Part shown: piece after piece, positions 5,120 to 59,698 of the stretch
Numbering within the stretch: the first letter of the stretch is position 1
Layout of the letters: every line of letters starts with the position of its first letter
Origin: Naegleria gruberi
Taxonomy: Eukaryota
Reading direction: 5' to 3' (one strand)
Assembly (NCBI GenBank): GCA_000004985.1
Contig: GG738860.1
Length of the DNA stretch: 64,000 nt
Notes under the pieces: generated by a model
The model's database searches: none
What the model was told of the DNA's origin: nothing
The model's input: only the letters and a program-made list of their open reading frames with translations
Position numbers and translations under genes: made by a program

Positions 5120-6448
5120 TTATTTCTTTTTCTTTTTTTTCTTTGGTGTTTTGGTTTTCTTTTCCTCAGATGCTGAAGCCTTGCTACTTGCCTCAACAAC
5201 TGCCTTGTTTGTTGTTGTTATATCGGTTTTAAAGTTTTCAATTCCTTCACTGTGATTCTCTAAACAATTTGGACAAAACCATTGTTTCTTGCCTTCTTCT
5301 GGCTTTTGTGAATCTGTTAAGCATTTATCAACATGAAATCCACAATCACAATAATCACAAAATACAAGTGTCCCTTCATTTGGTCCCTTTCTACATTTCA
5401 AACAAATTTTACAATCAGAACATAACCAATTATCCTTATGAACTTGTTCCAAATGTTCCAAATTAGGTGTATAACAAAATGTGTGGAAATATGAATTACA
5501 AGACAAACACTGAATGAATTTGGTCTCCTGCTCAAAACTATTACAAATCTTGCAAAGCTTTCTTGTTCTTGGTCTACCACGTTTCTTTGGAATCTGTGAA
5601 AGGTCAGTTTCAGAAAATATCTTAGTAGATGATTGACTTTCTGTTTCAGTCTTTGGTGTTTCAACTACAGATTCAACTGTTGGTGCATCAGATACATCAA
5701 CAGGTGCCGTAACTGTGCTTTCAATACTTGGTATGGTTTCCTCAGTTTGTGGAAATTCGTCTATCAATTGTATAAGAGCATCATTCTCGTCTATCATCTC
5801 TTGTTGTGGCTTATTTGATGAAAGAGAATCGATCACATCCGAATAGGTGTTTGAAATTCCTTCCAATCTATCCCTAGAAATTACTATTGTTGAATTAAGA
5901 GTTGGTTGATTTAGACGATTAAAACCAAACTCGTTAGCATATTCTGGTCTACTTTTACAATACATTTCCAAAATACTCTTAGTGTTATGAATATATCTTT
6001 GTTCTTGTTTCGAATTTTGGAAGAATTTGGTACAGTAACAAATTACTCTAGCTGTGTATGGACAAGCTGTATGGAAGTTAGATTTGTATCCGAAACTAGT
6101 CTTAACATTAGGGAATGATGACATTAGAAAAGGAACTTCCTCCTTTTGTCTCTTCATCAATTGTATTTCTTCCAAAGATAATTGCTTAGATTTTGTTTGA
6201 TCTCCATTATGAACAATCGATGACGAATTATCATTCACATTAGATAGTAAATCTCCATTTATCATCATCAAGTCATCACCATGTGCAATATTGTTATTTC
6301 CTTCCTCCAAAATAATATTTGTTGTTTGAACGGAAGAAGATGTATCAACAACAGATGCAAGAACCTCATCGGCACTCTCATCAATTCCATTCAACAATTC
6401 ATCGACGTCATTTTGATGAGAACGTGGCGGAGTTTCAATTTCACTCAT
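5120..6448 (-). CDS. Tandem PHD zinc-finger protein with lysine-rich C-terminus
   Basis: Minus ORF 5120..6493. Two adjacent C4HC3 PHD fingers (CKICNSF...CLSCNSYFHTFC...WLCSDCKIC; CLKCRKG...FCDYCDCGFHVDKC...WFCPNCL). Start taken at MSEIETPP (6448); an upstream in-frame ATG at 6493 is also possible. Confidence 0.6.
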   Translation of the reverse strand: MSEIETPPRSHQNDVDELLNGIDESADEVLASVVDTSSSVQTTNIILEEGNNNIAHGDDLMMINGDLLSNVNDNSSSIVHNGDQTKSKQLSLEEIQLMKRQKEEVPFLMSSFPNVKTSFGYKSNFHTACPYTARVICYCTKFFQNSKQEQRYIHNTKSILEMYCKSRPEYANEFGFNRLNQPTLNSTIVISRDRLEGISNTYSDVIDSLSSNKPQQEMIDENDALIQLIDEFPQTEETIPSIESTVTAPVDVSDAPTVESVVETPKTETESQSSTKIFSETDLSQIPKKRGRPRTRKLCKICNSFEQETKFIQCLSCNSYFHTFCYTPNLEHLEQVHKDNWLCSDCKICLKCRKGPNEGTLVFCDYCDCGFHVDKCLTDSQKPEEGKKQWFCPNCLENHSEGIENFKTDITTTNKAVVEASSKASASEEKKTKTPKKKKKKK

Positions 6449-6708
6449 TTTTTTCAACTTTACTTTTAGCGGTTTCTTGAAGAAAATGATCATTGTTATG
6501 TAACGGGATATGACTCATAGTTGTTTCATCATGAGCAATGCTCTTCTTGTATCAATTCGTATTGAATAAATGGCTCGACATTTTTTACTGGCTATGATAA
6601 GCATCAGGAGTTGAATTTTTAAAAAAGGCTTTCCTTCCCGTTCTTCCGGTGTTGTTGGGAAGTAAAAAATTGGATTTTTCAAAAATTTAATATTTTAAAA
6701 ATAAAAAA

Positions 6709-23662: not shown

Positions 23663-26600
23663 ATGATGTCAGCAACAAGAAATCATCATGAACCACAAAA
23701 TAATGAACGACAGTCGTCGGAAAGAGTCTACCGTAAAAAGATTTTAGATGCTGTCTTGGAGTATTATTCAGAGGCTTTTTCTATAGAAAAAAGTAACGAG
23801 CAAATTAAAACGGAAATGGACCTTTGTTTACCGAAAAATGTCTGTAAGCGTATTTCATTTAAATTATTGAAAACAGGAGTCCAAAAAAAAGAAACAAATA
23901 TAAATTCCATTAGTGAGAAAGTTTTGAAAATTCCAAAAAAAGAAAAGAAAATTGAAAATCATGAAGAAGTGCTTCTTTCCCAAGCAGACTTGGATGATTT
24001 TAATAAGGAACCAACACAACATGACACTGAGGAGAAAAAAAAACAAATAATGGAGTATACTGAGCAGTATATTCAGAAAAAGTCACAGAGTGTGCTTTCA
24101 CAGATGGATAGTATTACTTTTCCCAAAAAGATTAGAGCAAGACTTGATCAAATTTCTAATGTTATTGCTAAAACCTGTATTCATCTAGAAGAAGAAAATG
24201 TAAAAGTGGAAGAAAAAGGATCAAATGATATTTCCCAAAACACCCCTATCAAAACAAAACAAGTTGATAATTGTCACACTACGGAAAGAAATGTTTCAAC
24301 TCAAAAAATTAATCTATTAAGAAACTTTAAATATTTATCTGTTGATACTCTTCAATATCTCTCAAGTGGTATCGACACTGTAGAAATGACTCACCAAATT
24401 CCAATAACAATGGCTATATTAGAATATGCTATGCAAAACACTGAAAAATTCAAATTTCAAACGTACGTATTCTATTTTTTAAATATTTAGTATTGATTGA
24501 TATTAAAAGTCTAGAGTGTCTTCAGTTAGGTTCTCTATTGATGGACGCATTCACTAAATACGATATCAAAGAGAAAAAAAGAGTATTTGGAGATACTAGT
24601 ATTCGAATAATGACTGAAAAAAAGATTCATCCCTATTTACTATTCATGGAAAGTCAACGAACAGACTGTGACACTGTTTTTAGTCACAAGGATTTTTTGA
24701 AAATTTGTTTAACATGTAGATCTTCGCTCAAATACACCACCTACCAATTATTTAACTCTCAAAACAAAACTATTTATGATAGTACAAAACTATCATGTTT
24801 TGCCTTATTAACATGTCCATCCACAGTGTTTGTTTTGAGAATGGATTGTGAAAATTATAAACCTGAAAATGTAACAAGTATGGTGATGGATAAAGCGTAT
24901 AGGCTTGGATTCTCTTTGAGGTTAATAGCAACTATTGACATGAAAAAAGATCCAGAATCACTACTTTCAGTATTATATACTATTTTTAGTTATGGACATG
25001 ATTTGACATTAACATTTAATGGAGAACCATGTGATAGAATTACTAACACTCCAATAGAAACTAAATTGAGAGCTCAAGAAGCTAATAATTTTACCTTTGA
25101 ACGCTACTATAATATTATTACTGAAGTATTTGAAAGTGATTTTAATGAGATTAGTTTAATTATTAAAGTACTTATTCAGAATCAATATGATAAAACGTAC
25201 CAATATGATTCGACTTTTAACGGGCCTAAATATGAGAAAACTGATTGGAAACAAAATTTCAATACCTTTCTTGAACAACATTCAGAATCAACAATTTATA
25301 TTTTATCAAACACCAATTCAACACCAACTCTTGAATTGCAAAGAAAAGGGAATGAAAAAATAATAGTTTTTTTTAAAACCAAACGAGTCTATGATTATTA
25401 TGATGATGATGAAGAAACTGAAATGAATGATAATGTAGAAAATAATGATGAATTGAATGAATATGATGAACTTGGCGATATATTGCATGCCACATGCTAT
25501 ACAAAACCTTTAAAAAAGAGAAAAAACCTAAAATCCCAATCGTTACAAGATTCAAAAAAATCTAAATCTAACACTGATACTGATATGTTTTTACAAAGAC
25601 CAGCTGGTAGCAATGTTTCTAACACAGGAGAGTTTTGCTTTGATAAAAATAATTCCACAAATGAAACAAAAGATTTGAAATTAGACAAATTATTAATGTT
25701 TGATATGACCAGTGAATATGAACAATTATTATATGAATTATTTAATATTAATATAATTAATAAGTATTATAGAATAAGAAGAGATTTAAATCCAAAAGAA
25801 GGAGTATTTTTATATTTGGATGGAATTTACAATAATAAGGAAGTATTTATTAAAATTACATGTTATAAAACAATTAATGAAAATATTGAATTAATGAACA
25901 AACTTAAAAATATAAAATCTAAATATTTAAATGAAATAATAGATTTTAAATTAATTAAATTATCCAATGAGCAATTATGTAAATTATTTAAATTAACAAA
26001 TATGGAAATTAAATATTTAGGATTAAAAAATGAAATTTTTATTTCAATTTTATCACCAACAATTGTGTGGTATGATTACTTTGTTTCAAATTATTGTAAA
26101 ATTTATCCATTAAAAGATTATAAATTAATTTTATTATTAATTATTAAATTATTTATTGATAATTTAAATGGATTAAAATTATTACATGAATTAAATATTT
26201 CACATATTGATTTTAACATTTTAAATTCTAATATAATATTAAATAATGGTTCTGATTTAATTAGTAAATATTTAAAAGAAAATAATTTACCAACATTTAA
26301 TATGGTATTAATTGATTTTAATAGTTCAAAATTAGAAAGTCAATTATTATTTACAAATGAATACATTCCAAAAACAACACATTATCCTCCTGATTATAAA
26401 TTATATTATGATAATATAAAACCAAATATATCATTTACAAAAGCACATGATATTTATTCATTATCTATTGTAATGATTCAATATATTACCATTTTGATTA
26501 ATTGTTATGGGAACAATTGCTTTCAAATGAAATCAAATACTATTAGATATATAAATCAATCACATAGAAACAAAGACGAACCATTCAATATTGATTTTAA

Positions 26601-26832
26601 TATTTTAAATTTTAATATTTTAAATAGTTTTGAAAAGGAAATTTTTAATGAATTATTTGAAATGATAAGAGAAATGAATTTAAACCCTTGGAAAATTATT
26701 AATGAAAAAGATTATTGTTTACAACAATTAGAAAAATTACAAAATAATGTATTGCATTGGAATATTTCTGATACTTCTTCATCACCTACAATTAATAGTG
26801 AAATGAAAAATTCACATCAAATGAAACAATGA
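23663..26832 (+). CDS. Large N/K/I-rich protein with a degenerate protein-kinase-like (pseudokinase) C-terminal region
   Basis: ORFs 23663..24490 and 24493..26832 are joined by a 47-nt intron (24463..24509; donor AC|GTACGT phase 2, acceptor AAAAG). An alternative junction 24467..24516 is also possible. Kinase-like remnants: LKLLHELNISHIDFNILNSNIIL (compare HRDLKPENILL), VLIDFNSSK (compare DFG), DIYSLSIVMIQYI (subdomain IX). No intact HRD/DFG, hence pseudokinase. Confidence 0.45.
25690..26700. repeat. Hyper-AT (>85% A+T) low-complexity coding stretch with short direct repeats (TTTTAATATTTTAAAT x2; NIDFNILNFNILNS)
   Basis: Visible shift in composition relative to flanks. Still one continuous reading frame of the pseudokinase-like gene. 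Confidence 0.5.
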
Positions 26833-26919
26833 TATTGTCAAATGATTCTTTTTCCTCAAATTTAATAGTCTCCCAATATAATCACTTTTGGCAAATTGTA
26901 TTCCTAAATATCATTGTCA

Positions 26920-26969
26920 NNNNNNNNNNNNNNNNNNNNNNNNNNNNNNNNNNNNNNNNNNNNNNNNNN
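26920..26969. other. Assembly gap (50 N)
   Basis: Run of 50 n characters. Scaffold-join placeholder, not biological sequence. Sits 87 nt after the stop of the pseudokinase-like gene and 35 nt before the stop of the minus-strand F-box gene. Confidence 0.95.
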
Positions 26970-27004
26970 ATTTTTTTTGAAGAAACTCATATTCATGAAG
27001 AGTA

Positions 27005-27541
27005 TCAATCCTCCCTAAGCAACTCAATTATTCTTTTCGTTTCCTCCAATTTCATATCAAAACTCCTCAATGAATCTTCATGCAATTCCTTCTCTCCAAA
27101 CAAGTGAGTCAATTTATGCTGATACGAAACTCTAATATCTGTATTTGTACTCTTTTGTAAACATTCAACAGTCCACTCAATTGAATCAGTCAATTCTCTT
27201 ATAATACTCGATTGTTTTTCAACTTGTGCATAATATTTCATTTCACGACAGAAGAGATTGTCTAAATAATTAATTTTTTCATCAATTAAATTCCCAATTA
27301 GTGGACGAATCGAATCTTGATAGAAATTTTCTCCAAAGTCTAATTGTTCAATTTTTACATGACAATGGGATGGATCGATATGTTTCCTATATAATTGAAG
27401 AATTTGTTTCCAATAGAATGGATCTGTTGTGATACGATTGTAAGTTGATTTGTTGATCAATAAAATGTTTCGAATATGTTTTAATGAGAGAAAGGAAAAT
27501 ATTTCGGTTTGTAATTCTGTTGGTAAATCCAATAGAGACAT
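27005..27541 (-). CDS. F-box domain protein
   Basis: Canonical F-box immediately after the start: MSLLDLPTELQTEIFSFLSLKHIRNILLINKSTYNRIT (LP.E(I/L)...IF..L....L). Start at ATG 27541; ORF open to 27574. Confidence 0.55.
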   Translation of the reverse strand: MSLLDLPTELQTEIFSFLSLKHIRNILLINKSTYNRITTDPFYWKQILQLYRKHIDPSHCHVKIEQLDFGENFYQDSIRPLIGNLIDEKINYLDNLFCREMKYYAQVEKQSSIIRELTDSIEWTVECLQKSTNTDIRVSYQHKLTHLFGEKELHEDSLRSFDMKLEETKRIIELLRED

Positions 27542-27651
27542 TTTTCTGTTATTATAATTCGAGTGACATCGCAATCACCACCTTTTGATTATTCGATTTA
27601 GTATCGATCAATTTCTAATAATTCCCACACAACTCGATAAAGAAATTCCAC

Positions 27652-27906
27652 ATGAAATTATCACAAATTGGATGTTCTACATGGACAAACAAACTCTTTT
27701 CAATTTCATTAGAAGTTTACAATATTTTTGATGAAATTTATGCAGAGGAAAGATTGAGATTGGAAATTTTAACCCTACGAAGGAATGGTCAGATCTCGAT
27801 GAATCAAATGGAGGACCTCTATCCATTGATATTGAGAAATGTGGATTACAATTTTGTTGATTTGTGTAAATCAATTGGATTGTTTCCTTTTAGATGGAGA
27901 TACTAA
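27652..27906 (+). CDS. Orphan small ORF (84 aa), no recognisable family
   Basis: ATG-initiated ORF in an otherwise unassigned 1.5-kb interval. Low confidence that it is expressed. Confidence 0.2.
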   Translation: MKLSQIGCSTWTNKLFSISLEVYNIFDEIYAEERLRLEILTLRRNGQISMNQMEDLYPLILRNVDYNFVDLCKSIGLFPFRWRY

Positions 27907-28100
27907 AAGCAAGGCCCTATTCACTTCTGAATTCAGAAATTAGAAAATTCTGAAAGAAAGGGTGGTTCTGAAATGTTAGAAAAGTTAATTTCATTAGATG
28001 GTTACACATTCTTAGATAGACCTTCTGAACTTTCAAAAACCTGCCATAATCTTGTCAAAAACAAGTATTCATACTCTCTCCTAGTTCAAAATTTAATATT

Positions 28101-29063: not shown

Positions 29064-30683
29064 TTAAACATGTTCATGTACTTTGGAACTATCGGAAACA
29101 ATGGAAACGTGATGACTAGTCAAATATTCCTTGTTTCTCATTTCCATTAATCTTGAAATTGTTCTTGTAAAGGCAAAAACTTCATCAAAATTCTCAGTTT
29201 GACTCTTATTGAAATTATAGGCAGGTTCAACGTTTAAATTAACTTCTCCTTGATTATCGAATTGACAAAGCTCCTCAACTGGTCTAGCTGCTGAACAAAT
29301 TACCTTAACACGATGTTGATAAAGTTCATCAATAAGAGTAATAAATCTTCTCATGTGATCTCTATTGTCCTTATTAAATGTTGGAATACCTGAAATGATA
29401 AGAGTGTGGAATTCTCTACAAATACCAATATAATCCACAGCACTCTTTGGTTGTTTACACAAAAAGTCAAATGTACAGAAAGCAACACCTCTAGCAGCTC
29501 TTGGAACCATCAACAGACGATTCATAACCATAATTGGTTTTGGTTCAGCATCATATGGATGAGTTAATTTTTGGAATAAACTTTCTAATTGTTGTTCTGA
29601 TTCCTTATTAAGTGGTGTGAAATATACATTAGTTTGCTTAGTACCACTTGATAATCTATAATCACAAACTGCTTCCATATCAAATACATCGTATTTAATT
29701 TTAATGACATCAATAAATGGTAAAAATGCTTCTCTGTTAATACCATTTTCATACAAGTGATCTGGAATTCTGTTAGATGTCTTGACAACTACAACTCCTC
29801 TATTTAATAATCCTTCAAAAAGTCTCTTTAAAATCATGGCCTATTAGATAAGAAATTGTTATTTTCAATTAATTTCTTCAAACTTACATCACCAATGTCA
29901 GTAACTTGGAATTCATCAAAACATAATAAATTATAATTATCAGCAATTTCATCCATTAATTTTTCCATATTTGCACCTCCATCCTTATTAATTCTATTCA
30001 TTTGATGCATTTTAGTGTGAAAATCAATCATGAAACTGTTAAAGTGAATTCTCAACTTTTTTTGCAATGGAACACACTTGAAAAACATGTCCTATTATTG
30101 AATTTTAAAATCCCAATTGAATATTTCTAAAACATACCATCAAGAATGTTTTACCACAACCAACATCTCCATAAATATAGAGAGATTTTGGTAAACCAGT
30201 TGGATGAGGTTTAATTTGCCTGGAAATAGCTTTTGGATCAAAAGAACCAGTTTTTGCAGTACCAGTTGCTGAAGTTGTTCCCAAATGATTTTTAATAACT
30301 GCTCTTGCATCATTAATATTATAATTCTTCAATTTTTCATAGAGATTTGTTAACACTTTTAACAATTCAATTTGTCTGACATCCTCATTGACTGATCCTT
30401 GTTTTACCAAATCTTTATAAACTTCCATTGGTGATTTTCCTTCAGTATGAAGACTTTCAGCATGCTTTGAAATTGTTAAAACTCTAGATGATGTACTAAA
30501 ATGTCTATTATTGGTTGAAGGAAGAATTAAAGATGACTTCCGAATCATATTTTTCTTAACCATTTGATGATGACACACAGAGGATGATGATGCTGACATG
30601 AGAGAGGCCATCATTGCACCACTCTTCAGTGATAATGATGAGGTTGATAAAAGTTTTTTAGTATTGTTGAATAGTAAACTCAT
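29064..30683 (-). CDS. AFG1L: AFG1-like mitochondrial ATPase (LACE1/AFG1L family)
   Basis: Three exons complement(join(29064..29840,29888..30091,30138..30683)); introns 47 nt (GTAAGT...CTAATAG) and 46 nt (GTATGT...AATAATAG), both phase 0. Walker A YIYGDVGCGKTFLM. Family blocks: [59 protein letters not shown] (compare human [47 protein letters not shown]). Confidence 0.82.
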
Positions 30684-30885
30684 TTTTTTTAACTTGGGAT
30701 TTTAAAAATAAATCAAATAATGCCGAATTATTGTTAGCGAGAGGATTCTTTGGAGGTTTTGTTGCCTTTTATGAGAATTGGAACGTATGAATAATAAGTG
30801 AATTCAAGTTAAGACAATATTAAGGGGAAAGTGATGCATCGTGTTTTTTTTTTCTTGTATTGTTATTAAAATAAATCAATGTGAA

Positions 30886-30966
30886 GCGGTCTTGACCGAG
30901 TGGTTAAGGTGATTGACTAGAAATCAATTGGGGCGACCCGCACAGGTTCGAATCCTGTAGACCGCG
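30886..30966 (+). tRNA. tRNA-Ser (anticodon AGA)
   Basis: Hand-folded cloverleaf. Acceptor GCGGTCT/AGACCGC (7 bp), U8; D-arm ACC-GAGTGGTTAA-GGT (3-bp stem, Ser-type); anticodon stem ATTGA/TCAAT with loop CTAGAAA (anticodon AGA); 13-nt variable arm TGGGGCGACCCGC; T-arm ACAGG-TTCGAAT-CCTGT; discriminator G. Internal Pol III A-box (AGTGGTTAAGG) and B-box (GGTTCGAATCC) present. Followed by T5-T6. Confidence 0.85.
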
Positions 30967-30969
30967 AAG

Positions 30970-30975
30970 TTTTTT
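30970..30975 (+). terminator. Pol III oligo-T terminator after tRNA-Ser
   Basis: TTTTTT run starting 4 nt after the discriminator base. Confidence 0.6.
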
Positions 30976-31344
30976 ATTGAAGAAGAATGTACTTTATTTT
31001 TACTTCAATCCACTCAAAGATCTTACATCATTCCATTCTAGTTCTTTAGGTGGCTAATGCATTTCTTCTATAAAGGTCAACACGTGTTTAACTGGAATTG
31101 CAATTAAAATTCCCTCTGAGAGATAATACTCGGTCTTACACACTTGAAAGACCATTCCAAGAATGACATCACACAAGAAATTAACAGGTATTTGACCCGA
31201 TTGACTGATTATGTTCTTTCATTACAGGCTCTATGTTACCATGAGGTGATTCATCATCAAACATTGGCATTGAAATTAAAATAATAATCAAATCATGAAA
31301 GAATACTTTAAAAAAAAAAATACAACAAAATCAAATTCTTTTTC

Positions 31345-33734
31345 ATGTCATCTCAATCGGTCGTGATGAAGAAGAAAACCTGGGGTGGGTTTGCTATTGT
31401 TGCTATTATGGCTATCATAATGGCAAGTATGCTTGCTCTTATTGAGGGTAGAAAGGAAGTTATAGGACACACTGGTAAAGGTCAAGTTAAATTTGATGGA
31501 CCTGTTGTCGGTATCGATCTTGGTACTACATACAGTGTTGTTGCCATCTATAAGAATGGTGCTGTTGAAGTTATTCCAAACGATCAAGGTAACAGAATTA
31601 CTCCTAGTGTTGTTTCATTTGTAAGTATTAATCTATCGATTGGATATTAACAACAGTGCAATGTGTGATGGAATGTTGTTGTTGTTGTTTGTTGCTACTA
31701 CTACTCTGTACTTGATTATAATCAATGATACAAAAAATCAACATTGATTTTTTAACACAAATCATGTTATTAATAATCATCGACAATGATTTAATGACAA
31801 TTTGATGGATGAACTAATTATTATTATTATAATATAGGATTTGTCAAATAATAATCAAAAACTTGTTGGTGACTCTGCCAAGAACAATGCCGTCTCTAAT
31901 CCAAAGAATACTTTCTACGATGTCAAGAGATTGATTGGTCGTAGATATAATGAAGTTTTGAATAAGGATGCCAAGCTCTTGTCATATGATTTGGTTAACA
32001 AGGAAGGTCGTGTTTATATCAATGTTCAAAATAAGACCACTTCTCCAGAAGAATTGAGTGCTCAAGTTTTGGTCAAGATGAAGCAAATTGCTGAAAAGTA
32101 TTTGGGTGAACCTGTTAAACATGCTGTCATTACTGTTCCTGCTTATTTCAACGATCAACAACGTCAATCTACAAAGGATGCTGGTCGTATTGCTGGTCTT
32201 AACGTTATTCGTATTGTCAACGAACCAACTGCTGCTGCCATGGCCTATGGTTTGTACAAGAAGGATAAGGAAGAAAATATCTTGGTTTTCGATTTGGGTG
32301 GTGGTACTTTTGATGTTTCTTTGTTGACTGTAAGTAGTTTATATATTATCGGAATGTGTGAAATTTTTTCAGATTGACCGTGGTGTTTTTGAAGTTATTG
32401 CTACTAATGGTGATACTCACTTGGGTGGTGAAGATTTCGATGCTAGAACTATTGATTTGTTGATTTCTCTCTTCACTAAGAAGCATCCAGAAATCAAGGC
32501 TGACAGATTGTACAAGGATTTGAGAGCTTATCAAAGATTGAAGCGTTCTGCTGAAGATGCTAAGAGATCTCTTTCAGCTGACACTAGTGTTAAGGTTGAA
32601 ATTGATAATTTGATTGATGGTATTGACTTGTCTCTCACTTTGTCTAGAACTCAATTCGAAAATGCCAACAAGGACTTGTTCAAGAAGACTTTGCTCCCTG
32701 TCCAACGTGTATTGAAGGATGCTAATTTGGAAAAGAGTGATATTGATGAAGTTGTTTTGGTTGGTGGTTCTACTAGAATTCCATTCATTAGACAACAATT
32801 GTCTGAATTCTTCGATGGTAAGGAACTCCATGTTGATGTCAACCCTGATGAAGCTATTGCCTATGGTGCTGCTGTTCAAGCTGCTGTTTTGGCTGGTACT
32901 ATGGATGATAAGGATATTATCTTGATTGACGTTACTCCATTGAGTTTGGGTATTGAAACTGTTGGTGGTGTTATGGCTACTATTATTCCAAGAAATACTC
33001 CAATTCCAACTGAAAAGTCTGATATTTTCACTACTACTGGTGATTACCAAACCAAATTGGCTATTCCAATTTATGAAGGTGAAAGACGTATTACTAAGTT
33101 CAACAGATTGCTCGGTGAATTGCAATTGACTGAAATTCCACCAGCTCCAAAGGGTGTTCCACAAATTAAGGTTGTCTTCCAATTGGATCAAAATGGTATT
33201 CTTAAGGTTATTGCTGAAGATCAAGCCACTAAGAATAGAAAGGAAATTGAAATTAAGAAGGGTAGCTTGTCTGATGAAGAAATTGAAAAGATGACCAATG
33301 ATGCTGAATCCAATGAACAAGATGATCGTGACTTCATGGAAAAGATTGAAGCTAGAAATAAGCTTGAAAGCTACATTGCTACTTTGAAGCAACAATTGGG
33401 TACTAAGAATATTGTCAATCGTTTGAAGTCTCAAGATAAGAATGCCATTTTGGATAAGCTTCGTTTGGTTCTCCGTTGGATGAAGGCCAATGAAGATAAG
33501 CCAACTGTTAAGAAGGAACACTTCATTGCTCAATACAAGAAATTGAGAAGCACTGCTGGTCCAATTTTGGCCAAGCTTTATGGTGGTGCTGACAGTTTGA
33601 CTGATGAAGAAATTTTGGGTGACGATTTCGAGGATGATTTCGGTGAAGATTCTACTTTGGCTGAAGATGAATTTGGTTTGAAGAATGAAGACGATGATAA
33701 GCCAATTAGTGATTCTCCAAAGGACGAATTGTAA
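31345..33734 (+). CDS. HSPA5: ER-lumenal Hsp70 (BiP/GRP78-like) with C-terminal KDEL
   Basis: Three exons join(31345..31620,31838..32329,32373..33734); introns 217 nt (GTAAGT...AATATAG) and 43 nt (GTAAGT...TTTCAG), both phase 0. Hsp70 signatures: [124 protein letters not shown]-terminal hydrophobic segment ([23 protein letters not shown]). Acidic C-terminal tail ending PKDEL. Confidence 0.85.
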
Positions 33735-33772
33735 ATTAACATTTCTAGAGCAAAAAAAAATTTAAATTAAAC

Positions 33773-34741
33773 TTATTTATTATTGAAAAGTTTGGTTGCT
33801 TCATCTCTGTTTGGGAAATTTTCTGCTACAATACTTTCCAAAACATTAATCGAAACTAGGTCAGCACCACTTCCCAATACTTCTGTTCTAATTCCAACAC
33901 TGGCTTCATCGTAAAGGCCATCCATTGGTTTATGTCCAAATTCAACAACAGAGAATGGAGATTCTTTCAAATCAGGATATGTATTTGTTAGCTTGACTGG
34001 ATCCTTTTCATAATCATATGTATTCCATTTAGATTGATCAAAGTCAGGATATCTCAATTCTGGATCATTCAAGATGCTTTGACGTTCTAATTCTTGAAGT
34101 TCAGCAAATGCAGAAGAAAAACTTGGGGTAATATTCTGATTTGTTTGTTTAGGTATTGATTTAACTCCAATATTCCTTAACAAGATATTTGATCCTATTC
34201 CTGCTGTTGATGTGGTACCTGTTGGAATCGTTGAATTGATATTTCCTTGTTGAATATTGATTGTTGGTGTTTGTGTTACATTATTTACAATAGTATTATG
34301 ATTAACTTGAGTAAATTCTTGAACTGTGCCATTAACTTGGTCAGTATTAATTGGAGTATTATCAATTATATTAGTATTCATTTGAGATGTTTGATTTAAT
34401 TCCTGTTGATTATTTTGAACTATATTTTGATTTAATTTTTGAAAATGTTGTTCCATCTCCGATTTACTTTGAAGTCCATTTGTAATTGATCTTAAATTAA
34501 GTCCCTTTCTAATTTCTCCTCTAACAGAAGAAACTTCGCTCATCATAAAATCAAACTCTTTTTTCATTTGTAATAATTCCGAATCTTTAGATTTTGCCAA
34601 TGAAGATTTAGCTTCCATCACCAATTTTAAACTCTTTCCACAAAATCTTCCCAACACTCGTGAATATTTGGGTATTTCCTGAGGTTTAAATAATAAAGTT
34701 CCCAACCCGAGCAAAACAACACCTCCCACCAAAGAAACCAT
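33773..34741 (-). CDS. Single-pass membrane protein with TatA/TatB-like N-terminal signature and long N/Q/T-rich tail (tentative)
   Basis: N-terminus MVSLVGGVVLLGLGTLLFKPQEIPKYSRVLGRFCGKSLKLVMEAKSS has a TM helix, an F-x-P-x-x-I-P hinge, then an amphipathic basic helix containing LG and KxxK. This mirrors TatA/B LLFG(P/T)KKLPxxxxxLGxxIKxFKKA. The remaining 250 aa are low complexity. Confidence 0.45.
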   Translation of the reverse strand: MVSLVGGVVLLGLGTLLFKPQEIPKYSRVLGRFCGKSLKLVMEAKSSLAKSKDSELLQMKKEFDFMMSEVSSVRGEIRKGLNLRSITNGLQSKSEMEQHFQKLNQNIVQNNQQELNQTSQMNTNIIDNTPINTDQVNGTVQEFTQVNHNTIVNNVTQTPTINIQQGNINSTIPTGTTSTAGIGSNILLRNIGVKSIPKQTNQNITPSFSSAFAELQELERQSILNDPELRYPDFDQSKWNTYDYEKDPVKLTNTYPDLKESPFSVVEFGHKPMDGLYDEASVGIRTEVLGSGADLVSINVLESIVAENFPNRDEATKLFNNK

Positions 34742-34776
34742 TTTTCAAATTTTTTTTACAATTAAAATTAAAAAAA

Positions 34777-35111
34777 ATGTCCACAATCGAAGCCCTCGAA
34801 CAAAAAGCCACCGAATACGAAAATCAAATTAAACAACTCCAACAACAAATTAAATCTCTGACCGGAGCTAGTAATAAGGATGTTCTTGAAGAGTTAAATA
34901 AGATCCGTCAAACAGTTGTTGAAGAAAAGAAGGAATATGAAGACATTTTATTAAAGAAGGATCAGGTAAGAAGAATATGATTTAAATCAAAGTAATTTAA
35001 ATTGGAATTTAATCGGATTTATTTTAATAATAGGAAATTGAGGAACTTAAAAAGACTATTGAAAAGAAGGATTATCGTATTGATATTTTGAAGAGATATG
35101 TCCAACAATAA
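34777..35111 (+). CDS. Small (about 89 aa) coiled-coil protein
   Basis: Two exons join(34777..34965,35034..35111); 68-nt intron GTAAGA...AATAATAG, phase 0. MSTIEALEQKATEYENQIKQLQQQIKSLTG...EIEELKKTIEKKDYRIDILKRYVQQ. Confidence 0.4.
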
Positions 35112-58112: not shown

Positions 58113-59698
58113 TCAACACTGATTGTTTGGTCTTGTTTCTTCAAAGAATTTCTCTCCAAAAACTTGGGTGAGACTTGGGAGCTTATTTTGCAATTGTATT
58201 TGTCCGTGTGATTTGGATTTTACAAACATAGGTCTCGAAATTGATGAATAAGGTGTTGGTGGTTGCTGTTGTGGAACTGGCATATGCATCTCTTGTTGTT
58301 GAGGAGAACTTGATAAACTTGAACTAACTAAGGATTGTACTGTTGACACACTTAGAACTTGCTCCTTCTTCTTTTGTATACCCTTAGCTGTTTGCTGAGC
58401 AACAGCGGTAAGTGATGAAGCCTTTTTTAGGGGTGGCCTAGAAAAAGAACTAGTTGTTCTTCTTAACATTCCACTACCTGAATTGTTGGAATCATTATCC
58501 AAATCAATAGCTGACATGTTTGCGACCAAATCACTCAAACTACTACTGCTGCTGCACGTGCTTAATGTACCAGTTTGGAAGTGATTACTCTCCGTATTCG
58601 TACAATTTGAAAATGTTATGGAGCTGTTGCTGTTTGCTTTAAGTAATTGAGGTCTTCTTAAGGAGGATAATGCTGGTTGAGGAGAAGATTGAAAACTTGT
58701 ATGTTGTTGTGTTGGTTGTTGTTGAATAGGTTGAGGAGTTGAGGAATAAACATCTCCCATACATACATCGGCTGATTCGCTCAATACTTGCTGGTTTGTT
58801 TGAGGAAGTTGAATCTGAGTGTTAATGTGAGACGATGAGCTCATGTTGTTAAAACCAGAGTTGTTCGGGTTGATGTTCATCGTATTTGTGTTGTTAAGAG
58901 GATTCATTTGGTTTGGTTGGTTCATAGAGGATTGCATTCCCCATGAGAATGAATTGCCTGTTGGATGATTATGGTGCTGTGGGTGGTGTTGAGAATTGAT
59001 CATTGAGGTATCCATGTTTGAATAATTATTGCTGATATTGTTGCTAGAAACATTCATAGAGAAGGATGGTTGTGTAGCAACTGAATGATTTTGAGTATAA
59101 TTATTAAGTGAAATATGATGATTCATGTTGTTTGTCCAAGTACTTTGATGAGTATTATTACTATTATGGGAGGATCCCATCATTAATTGGGATGATTGGT
59201 TAGTGAATAAATTATTGTTGGTTGGTATTACATTGTTATTTGTTTGATACATGTTTGCATAATTTGTTTGTCCAATGGTGTTATTATTATTGTTAGGACC
59301 ATTGAAGTTTGTGGAATTATTTGGAATATTGGAAGAGGATTGTTGTTGAGGAGTTCCAAAGTCACTATCATTAAAGTTATTGAAAACAAACTCCTTATTG
59401 TCTCTGATAAATTCTGAAACCTTTTCCTTATATTCATCTTCATTCATTTCAACATTACTGTCATTGGCTCCTTTTTGTATTATTGACTTGATTCTTCTAT
59501 AAGGCCATCTATTGATTCCGTATTGACGACAGAACTTCTTTAGGAGAGTTTGGCATATTCCTTCATTAAGGTTAAATAAGATTATGATGAAAGGAATGTT
59601 TAATAATTACCCATGTCGTCTGCAGCTCTTTGTAGAGGAAGATGAAATCGCTCTGATATCTCTTCGTAAGTTGGTTTCTTCTTTGGTGTTGGTGGCAT
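58113..59698 (-). CDS. RWP-RK domain transcription factor with long N/Q/S-rich (prion-like) C-terminal region
   Basis: complement(join(58113..59560,59611..59698)); 50-nt intron GTAATT...AATGAAG, phase 1. Domain FHLPLQRAADDMGICQTLLKKFCRQYGINRWPYRRIKS has the invariant RWPxRK signature and the preceding helix, as in plant NLP/RKD and Dictyostelium proteins. The remaining 430 aa are N/Q/S/T low complexity. Confidence 0.72.

What the first reader, a model, noticed from the sequence alone, without database searches (positions are those of the whole stretch)
33773..34741. Nuclear gene with a TatA/TatB-like N-terminus (TM helix - FxP hinge - amphipathic helix)
MVSLVGGVVLLGLGTLLFKPQEIPKYSRVLGRFCGKSLKLVMEAK reproduces the architecture and spacing of bacterial/organellar TatA/B/Hcf106 (LLFGPKKLP......LGxxxKxFKKA). 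The hinge Gly is replaced by Lys (FKPQEIP). If genuine, this would be a nuclear-encoded Sec-independent translocase subunit, which would normally require an organellar TatC. The 250-aa N/Q/T-rich tail is atypical for Tat proteins. It could alternatively be a convergent tail-anchored-type membrane protein.
Basis: inference. Interest (0 to 1): 0.5.

Follow-up and report, generated by a model that had tools for sequence, protein, structure and literature searches.

The report
Unannotated mitochondrial TatB gene in Naegleria
This 322-codon gene of the amoeba Naegleria gruberi is a diverged, apparently unannotated copy of the nuclear-encoded mitochondrial TatB subunit known from plants, which means that Naegleria mitochondria, published as having TatC alone, most likely have a two-part TatB-TatC machine.

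Summary
Window 33773-34741, on the minus strand, is an intact 322-aa ORF. Residues 1-18 are its only hydrophobic segment, K19-P20 is a hinge, and residues 21-50 are the most amphipathic helix in the protein.

The window is Naegleria gruberi nuclear DNA. The ORF is absent from the N. gruberi protein set in the collection searched. It is under purifying selection (dN/dS about 0.1 in both conserved ends) and syntenic in N. fowleri and N. lovaniensis.

The Tat interpretation is supported, and can be made more exact.
- The protein alone misses Pfam TatA_B_E. A profile of the five heterolobosean sequences finds 36 relatives among 1.8 billion proteins, in green algae, lycophytes, an oomycete and Diphylleia.
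- An HMM of 33 non-heterolobosean members finds this ORF at 84.7 bits (E 2e-22). The next best score is 9 bits.
- The family profile's six best PDB hits are all TatA/TatB chains. TIGR01410 (tatB) matches 28 of 35 members.
- A conserved C-terminal motif (…SGADLVSINVLE…) is shared.

So this is the heterolobosean orthologue of eukaryotic nuclear-encoded mitochondrial TatB. Petrů et al. 2018 show that N. gruberi mtDNA encodes TatC but classed the species as "TatC-only". It is a new member of a known kind. Localisation and function are inferred.

The parts
33773..34741 (-). Complete intron-less CDS (322 aa plus TAA stop) of the N. gruberi mitochondrial TatB-like protein
   Evidence: ORF list and sequence. 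Orthologues in N. lovaniensis, N. fowleri, Willaertia magna and an ENA sample. dN/dS 0.27 overall between N. fowleri and N. lovaniensis. Reciprocal HMM hit of 84.7 bits.
34688..34741 (-). Residues 1-18: short N-terminal transmembrane helix starting at Met1, with no presequence
   Evidence: Only hydrophobic segment. AF2 helix 4-17, pLDDT 80-85. Aligns with the TM helix of TatB and TatA chains.
34682..34687 (-). Residues 19-20: hinge K-P. The family consensus is G-P. Pro is retained; Gly is replaced by Lys (Lys or Arg in all Naegleria/Willaertia sequences)
   Evidence: Alignment columns: position 19 is G in 21/32, K in 4, R in 2; position 20 is P in 28/32. Helix break at 18-19 in the model.
34592..34681 (-). 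Residues 21-50: amphipathic helix with the family signature QEIPKYSRVLGRFCGKS (P24, R28, G31, G35 nearly invariant in the family)
   Evidence: Maximum hydrophobic moment of the protein. AF2 helix 20-50, pLDDT 89-92. Column counts.
34502..34582 (-). Residues 54-80: third helix, SELLQMKKEFDFMMSEVSSVRGEIRKG, matching the mTatB motif E..(L/M)..E....(E/Q)...(I/V)R.E.R.G
34127..34471 (-). Residues 91-205: N/Q/T-rich, poorly conserved, predicted-disordered linker
   Evidence: Composition. dN/dS 0.5. pLDDT below 50. Length varies among homologues.
33812..34126 (-). Residues 206-310: conserved C-terminal domain, present in the eukaryotic mTatB family alignment and with no counterpart in the bacterial TatB chains or models it matched
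   Evidence: dN/dS 0.10. Aligned by the non-heterolobosean HMM at residues 270-308. Helices 208-225 and 292-308 in the model.
33824..33895 (-). Residues 283-306: GIRTEVLGSGADLVSINVLESIVA, the core C-terminal motif (G292 invariant in 32/32; A/S293, D/E294 and E302 conserved)

Best explanation
The ORF is the Naegleria gruberi orthologue of the eukaryotic nuclear-encoded mitochondrial TatB (mTatB/eTatB, the family of Arabidopsis At5g43680). This family is a diverged member of the bacterial TatA/TatB superfamily. Inferred mechanism, step by step: the protein is made in the cytosol and imported without an N-terminal presequence. It sits in the inner mitochondrial membrane through its short N-terminal helix, with the amphipathic helix on the matrix face. 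It binds the mtDNA-encoded TatC to form the TatBC receptor complex. By analogy with plants, that complex moves the folded Fe-S domain of the Rieske protein across the inner membrane during complex III assembly. Shown here: the gene is real and under constraint, it is homologous to the mTatB family over both conserved ends, and that family is homologous to TatA/B. Taken from the literature: TatC is present and expressed in N. gruberi mitochondria, and plant mTatB-TatC functions in Rieske topogenesis. Inferred only: mitochondrial localisation, binding to NgTatC and the substrate.
Against: The window protein alone does not reach any curated Tat model threshold: no PF02416 hit, and NF002377 at 13.5 bits against a cutoff of 96. 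Two residues regarded as TatB signatures are changed. The polar TM residue (E in 12 and Q in 5 of 31 family members) is Gly6, and the hinge Gly is Lys19. Fold searches gave nothing specific. The Arabidopsis sequence itself was not retrieved, so the link to the experimentally studied protein runs through other embryophyte orthologues and NCBI names. NgTatC lacks E170 and F94 and did not complement E. coli, so classical Tat transport may be altered or lost. Nothing on expression or localisation could be tested here.
Confidence: 0.85

Rival explanations
1. It is a true mTatB homologue but no longer part of a protein translocase. With the degenerate NgTatC it would form a static scaffold or assembly factor, for example for complex III, that does not transport folded cargo.
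For: NgTatC lacks the cavity Glu/Gln (E170) and the signal-peptide-binding Phe (F94), failed to complement E. coli, and sits in an unusually large and stable 900 kDa complex. The Naegleria protein has lost the TM polar residue and the hinge Gly. Twin-arginine motifs in Rieske proteins do not correlate with Tat presence.
Against: Strong purifying selection on both the TatB-like N-terminus and the C-terminal motif. Plant mTatB/TatC, also divergent, is reported to be needed for Rieske topogenesis. The complementation test used E. coli TatB, not this protein, so its failure is now explicable.
Confidence: 0.2
2. It acts as a bifunctional TatA/TatB, both receptor partner and pore-forming or membrane-thinning subunit, because no TatA is known in Naegleria.
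For: The family profile hits TatA chains as well as TatB chains: chloroplast TatA 7b7o is the top PDB hit and B. subtilis TatAd is third. A bifunctional role has been proposed for plant mTatB. N. gruberi mtDNA has no tatA according to Petrů 2018.
Against: NCBIfam tatB matches far more members, and more strongly, than tatAE. The long amphipathic helix plus extra helices is TatB-like. A separate TatA in the rest of the genome was not searched for.
Confidence: 0.2
3. It is a convergent single-pass (signal-anchor or tail-anchor-like) membrane protein unrelated to Tat, and the resemblance is chance.
For: No Pfam hit for the single sequence. Short TM-plus-amphipathic helices are common.
Against: Reciprocal profile hits at E 2e-22 across two separate conserved regions. 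hhalign probability 96.7%. Family-level hits to TatB models and Tat structures, all in register at the P-x-x-[LI]-P hinge.
Confidence: 0.03
4. It is a non-functional or spurious ORF, which would explain why it is missing from the N. gruberi gene set.
For: The exact sequence is not in the 15-billion-protein collection, and no N. gruberi protein was returned.
Against: Intact ORF with orthologues in at least four other heteroloboseans, dN/dS 0.1 in the conserved parts, conserved synteny.
Confidence: 0.02

Closest known systems
Plant nuclear-encoded mitochondrial TatB (mTatB, Arabidopsis At5g43680; Carrie et al. 2016, Schäfer et al. 2020) and its published homologues in oomycetes, ochrophytes, cryptophytes (Petrů 2018) and jakobids (Gray 2020)
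   Same: Nuclear-encoded. Starts directly with a short TM helix (no N-terminal extension in nearly all members). P-x-x-[LI]-P hinge region and amphipathic helix with the R..G(R)..G signature. Third helix with E..L..E....E...IR.E.R.G. Variable linker. Conserved C-terminal ...[ST]G[AS][DE]....E motif. Occurs together with mtDNA-encoded TatC. Supported.
   Different: Hinge Gly is Lys/Arg. The TM Glu/Gln is Gly (Ser or Leu in relatives). The N/Q/T-rich linker is longer and the C-terminal domain is expanded (…SPFSVVEFGHKP…LYDE.S.GIRTE…). Only about 20% identity to plant members. Heteroloboseans are not on any published list of TatB-positive lineages found in the paper library.
Bacterial TatB (E. 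coli TatB; TIGR01410; PDB 2mi2, 9dzz, 9e03)
   Same: Order of elements: short N-terminal TM helix, hinge with Pro, long amphipathic helix, further helices. Partner of TatC. Family-level profile matches.
   Different: No significant pairwise similarity. Lacks Glu8 and Gly21 equivalents. Carries a conserved C-terminal domain with no counterpart in the bacterial TatB chains or models it matched. Below the curated cutoff of every bacterial model.
TatA/TatE/Tha4 (Pfam PF02416 TatA_B_E; PDB 7b7o, 2l16, 2lzs)
   Same: Same superfamily and the same TM-hinge-amphipathic-helix core.
   Different: TatA proteins are short (50-90 aa) with the FG..KL and ..FK motifs. This family scores better against tatB than tatAE models (28 members against 8) and is 3-4 times longer.

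Membership tests
Eukaryotic nuclear-encoded mitochondrial TatB (mTatB/eTatB) | Significant full-length sequence similarity to established family members, shown by a reciprocal profile search | tested here: met
   Forward: (36 hits at E<1e-3 in 1.8e9 proteins, including Plasmopara halstedii, green algae and lycophytes). Reverse: (84.7 bits, E 2e-22). hhalign against embryophytes: probability 96.7%.
Eukaryotic nuclear-encoded mitochondrial TatB (mTatB/eTatB) | Conserved C-terminal [ST]-G-[AS]-[DE]...E motif downstream of a variable linker. This is a family feature derived here from the alignment, not one taken from the literature | tested here: met
   S291-G292-A293-D294...E302. G292 is invariant in 32/32 aligned members. 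The region is aligned by the non-heterolobosean HMM.
Eukaryotic nuclear-encoded mitochondrial TatB (mTatB/eTatB) | Encoded in the nucleus of a species whose mtDNA encodes TatC | tested here: met
   Nuclear scaffold of N. gruberi. mtDNA-encoded TatC detected in N. gruberi mitochondria according to Petrů 2018. The TatC part rests on the literature; the mtDNA was not read here.
Eukaryotic nuclear-encoded mitochondrial TatB (mTatB/eTatB) | Direct link to the experimentally characterised Arabidopsis At5g43680 protein | tested here: inconclusive
   The Arabidopsis sequence was not returned. The link runs through lycophyte and liverwort members and angiosperm members of 214-252 aa, several named TatB(-like) by NCBI. 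At5g43680 is 232 aa.
Eukaryotic nuclear-encoded mitochondrial TatB (mTatB/eTatB) | Localisation in the inner mitochondrial membrane in a complex with TatC | not testable with these tools
   No N-terminal presequence. As in most family members, the protein starts at the TM helix. This needs experiments.
Bacterial-type TatA/TatB superfamily (Pfam PF02416 TatA_B_E; TIGR01410 tatB) | Score above the curated threshold of the family model | tested here: not met
   Window protein: no PF02416 hit at E<=10. Best NCBIfam Tat model 13.5 bits against a cutoff of 96. Met only transitively: 13/35 relatives hit PF02416 (best 6e-7), 28/35 hit TIGR01410 (best 9e-15), and the family profile hits Tat chains in PDB.
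Bacterial-type TatA/TatB superfamily (Pfam PF02416 TatA_B_E; TIGR01410 tatB) | Short N-terminal TM helix, then a hinge, then an amphipathic helix | tested here: met
   Hydropathy and hydrophobic moment. AF2 helices 4-17, 20-50 and 54-80 at pLDDT 80-92.
Bacterial-type TatA/TatB superfamily (Pfam PF02416 TatA_B_E; TIGR01410 tatB) | Hinge Gly-Pro (TatB G21-P22) | tested here: inconclusive
   Pro20 is present. Gly is replaced by Lys19. The hinge Gly is also replaced in several other eukaryotic members (A, F, S, R).
Bacterial-type TatA/TatB superfamily (Pfam PF02416 TatA_B_E; TIGR01410 tatB) | Polar Glu/Gln near the N-terminal end of the TM helix (TatB E8) | tested here: not met
   The aligned position is Gly6. 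The family has E in 12, Q in 5, T in 5, G in 3 and S in 3 members.

The most novel reading that the evidence does not exclude
The published 'TatC-only' class of mitochondria may be largely an artefact of divergence and missing gene models. A nuclear TatB carrying a eukaryote-specific C-terminal domain would then date back to the last eukaryotic common ancestor, and would be the obligatory partner of mitochondrial TatC wherever TatC survives. It is here found in Heterolobosea and also in Diphylleia, besides plants, stramenopiles, cryptists and jakobids. The negative complementation results for NgTatC would then reflect the missing cognate TatB. The heterolobosean pair (TatB without the TM Glu and hinge Gly; TatC without E170 and F94) would be a co-evolved, mechanistically altered Tat system.
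Probability: 0.35. Interest if true: 0.65.

Novelty: new member of a known kind. Interest (0 to 1): 0.5.

Why it matters
N. gruberi is the experimental example of a 'TatC-only' mitochondrion. [quoted passage not shown] A cognate nuclear TatB moves heteroloboseans from TatC-only to TatBC. It also offers a concrete reason for the failed complementation and names a candidate second subunit of that complex. It extends the mTatB family to another deep eukaryotic lineage, which bears on whether nuclear TatB was present in the ancestor of eukaryotes. It also corrects annotation: the gene is missing from the N. gruberi protein set and is N-terminally truncated in N. fowleri. Finally, it points to a conserved C-terminal motif of unknown role shared by the eukaryotic mTatB family members aligned here.

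Tried and rejected
- Single-sequence Pfam and NCBIfam scans found no significant Tat hit.
- The profile of five heterolobosean sequences against PDB sequences found no Tat hit. Only the 35-member family profile found Tat chains.
hhalign of the 5-sequence profile against that single sequence gave only 8.7% probability, although in register.
- AlphaFold2 with 5 sequences gave pLDDT 41 and was unusable.
- I tried to see whether the N. gruberi annotation has a gene model at this locus, using exact look-up of neighbouring ORFs. None of the three neighbours was on record, presumably because of introns in the models.
- I tried to retrieve Arabidopsis At5g43680. It was not returned by the word-indexed searches, and Carrie et al. 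2016 is not in the library.
- Rejected readings: a tail-anchored or convergent membrane protein, and a spurious ORF (see rivals).

Full report
**What is at the coordinates.** Window 33773-34741 holds one intact ORF on the minus strand: ATG at 34741, TAA at 33773-33775, 322 aa. The finding did not state the strand.

The window is nuclear DNA of Naegleria gruberi. Two other ORFs (5120-6493 and 58113-59447, both minus strand) are identical to N. gruberi proteins EFC46079 and EFC46096, which lie on a 537-kb contig. The ORF is tightly packed between its neighbours:
- 38 bp separate its stop from the convergent stop of an HSP70/BiP gene ending in KDEL.
- 35 bp separate its ATG from the divergent ATG of a small coiled-coil gene.

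**The architecture is as described.**
- Residues 1-18 are the only hydrophobic segment of the protein.
- The highest helical hydrophobic moment of the whole protein lies at residues 22-42 (muH 0.62; 46 of 5000 shuffles of the segment reach it).
- AlphaFold2 with a 35-sequence family alignment predicts helix 4-17, a break at K19-P20, helix 20-50 and helix 54-80, at pLDDT 80-92.

The tail is not uniformly low-complexity.
- Residues 91-205 are N/Q/T-rich, variable and predicted disordered.
- Residues 206-310 are conserved.

**It is a real gene.** Orthologues of 41-51% identity exist in N. lovaniensis, N. fowleri, Willaertia magna and an environmental sample. In N. fowleri and N. lovaniensis the gene sits in the same neighbourhood: AFG1 ATPase, HSP70/BiP, this gene, small coiled-coil gene. 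Between N. fowleri and N. lovaniensis, Nei-Gojobori dN/dS is as follows:

| Region (residues) | dN/dS |
|---|---|
| 1-90 | 0.10 |
| 91-205 (linker) | 0.50 |
| 206-310 | 0.10 |

The exact protein is not in the 15-billion-sequence collection, and no N. gruberi protein came back from the homology search. The gene therefore appears to be unannotated in N. gruberi. The N. fowleri model (273 aa) starts at an internal Met. The full ORF there is 314 aa and begins MVSLISGLLLIGVGTALIKPQEIPKF…, so the annotated model lacks exactly the Tat-like part.

**Is it Tat-related?** On its own the sequence fails. There is no Pfam PF02416 hit. The best NCBIfam Tat model gives E 0.07 and 13.5 bits against a cutoff of 96. 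BLASTP against E. coli TatB is insignificant.

At family level the answer is clear.
1. *Forward search.* A profile of the five heterolobosean sequences, run against 1.8 billion representative proteins, gave 36 hits at E<1e-3. Those with a source name come from:
   - green algae (Parachlorella 2.5e-7, Botryococcus, Trebouxia, Pyramimonas);
   - lycophytes (Diphasiastrum, Selaginella);
   - the oomycete Plasmopara halstedii (6.7e-5);
   - Diphylleia rotans.

   Two metagenomic members are labelled TatA by IMG.
3. *Profile against profile.* hhalign of the heterolobosean alignment against an embryophyte alignment gives probability 96.7% and E 4e-10 over 83 columns.
4. *Plant link.* The embryophyte profile pulls in angiosperm proteins of 214-252 aa, several of which NCBI names 'sec-independent protein translocase protein TatB(-like)'. 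Arabidopsis mTatB, At5g43680, is 232 aa.
5. *Link to bacterial Tat.*
   - 13 of 35 family members hit Pfam TatA_B_E (best 6e-7).
   - 28 of 35 hit TIGR01410 tatB (best 9e-15), against 8 for tatAE.
   - The family profile's six best PDB matches are all TatA or TatB chains (E 1.5e-4 to 5e-3).
   - The other Naegleria and Willaertia sequences individually hit TIGR01410 in register (E 9e-4 to 0.045).

**Conserved positions.** The window protein keeps the family's near-invariant positions:
- N-terminal region: P20, P24, R28, G31, G35, E55, E62, E69, R74, E76, G80, N82.
- C-terminal domain: P262, R285, G292 (32/32), A293, D294, E302.

It departs at two positions usually treated as TatB signatures:
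- The polar TM residue (E in 12 and Q in 5 of 31 members) is Gly6.
- The hinge Gly (21 of 32 members) is Lys19. It is Lys or Arg in all Naegleria and Willaertia sequences.

**Context from the literature.**
- Petrů et al. 2018 defined three mitochondrial Tat arrangements: TatAC, TatBC and TatC-only.
- They included the N. gruberi proteome in their search set (Table S2) and used N. gruberi as their TatC-only model.
- Its mtDNA-encoded TatC is present in mitochondria in a ~900 kDa complex.
- It lacks E170, has F94 replaced, and did not complement E. coli, including when expressed from a synthetic E. coli tatA-tatB-NgtatC operon.
- Nuclear TatB was reported for plants (Carrie 2016, cited), for oomycetes, ochrophytes and a cryptophyte, and later for Andalucia and other jakobids (Gray 2020).
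- In plants the TatB-TatC complex is reported to be needed for Rieske Fe-S protein topogenesis and complex III assembly.
- Full-text searches found no paper reporting a TatB in Naegleria or any heterolobosean. The library is incomplete.
- The miss is understandable: the gene is absent from the N. gruberi protein set in the collection searched here, and it is too diverged for the Pfam model.

**Most likely mechanism.** Homology is shown here. The presence of TatC comes from the literature. The rest is inferred, in this order:
1. The protein is imported into mitochondria without a cleavable N-terminal extension. Like nearly all family members, it begins at the TM helix.
2. It anchors in the inner membrane by residues 1-18, with the amphipathic helix lying on the matrix face.
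3. It pairs with TatC to form the receptor complex.
4. That complex handles the folded Rieske domain.

The conserved C-terminal motif has no counterpart in the bacterial TatB chains or models that the family matched, and its role is unknown.

Rival readings:
- A true homologue that has lost translocase activity together with the degenerate NgTatC.
- A bifunctional TatA/B.
- A convergent protein, which the profile evidence contradicts.
- A spurious ORF, which the conservation evidence contradicts.

**Verdict.** The gene is a new, diverged and unannotated member of a known family. Its main value is that it revises the 'TatC-only' status of Naegleria and gives a testable partner for NgTatC. Fold searches were uninformative. 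Localisation, partner binding and substrate remain to be tested.

Noticed in passing
L001:3878-4822 (N. fowleri VFQX01000043.1): The annotated N. fowleri orthologue (FDP41_005173, 273 aa) starts at an internal Met. The uninterrupted ORF is 314 aa and includes the TM helix and K-P hinge (MVSLISGLLLIGVGTALIKPQEIPKF…). The public model is N-terminally truncated.
   Followed up: yes
window 33773-34741 (-): The exact protein is not in the protein collection, and no N. gruberi hit was returned, although neighbouring genes of the same scaffold are present. The gene seems to be missing from the N. gruberi NEG-M annotation.
   Followed up: partly
window 33824-33895 (-), residues 283-306; alignment A2: The eukaryotic mTatB family shares a conserved C-terminal motif (…P.S…G..P..R….[ST]G[AS][DE]…….E…; Gly292 invariant in 32/32 members). 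It has no counterpart in the bacterial TatB chains or models the family matched, and no function for it was found in the papers read.
   Followed up: partly
window 33735-33772 and 34742-34776: Very short intergenic spacers: 38 bp between the convergent stop codons of the HSP70/BiP gene and this gene, and 35 bp between the divergent start codons of this gene and a small coiled-coil gene (34777-34980+). The latter implies a minimal bidirectional promoter.
   Followed up: no
window 29064-33734; L001; L002: The gene order AFG1-like ATPase, HSP70/BiP (ends PKDEL), mTatB, small coiled-coil gene (weak ADIP hit on the orthologues), with RCC1-repeat and LRR genes further on, is conserved between N. gruberi, N. 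fowleri and N. lovaniensis.
   Followed up: partly
P0039 (Diphylleia rotans transcriptome) and unnamed metagenome/Logan proteins P0009-P0016: mTatB-like proteins also occur in Diphylleia rotans, a lineage not on the published list of nuclear-TatB-positive eukaryotes. They also occur in several unidentified protists that are the closest relatives of the heterolobosean sequences (E 1e-25 to 1e-37).
   Followed up: no
window 24001-28000: G+C drops to 0.24-0.27, against about 0.32 elsewhere. The region contains a 779-aa ORF (24493-26832, +) with no Pfam match.
   Followed up: no
window 34777-34980 (+): The 67-aa first exon of the divergent neighbour gives a sub-threshold Pfam hit to 'T4SS' (PF07996, E 6e-5, 23.9 bits against a cutoff of 24.7). 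This is most likely a coiled-coil composition artefact.
   Followed up: no
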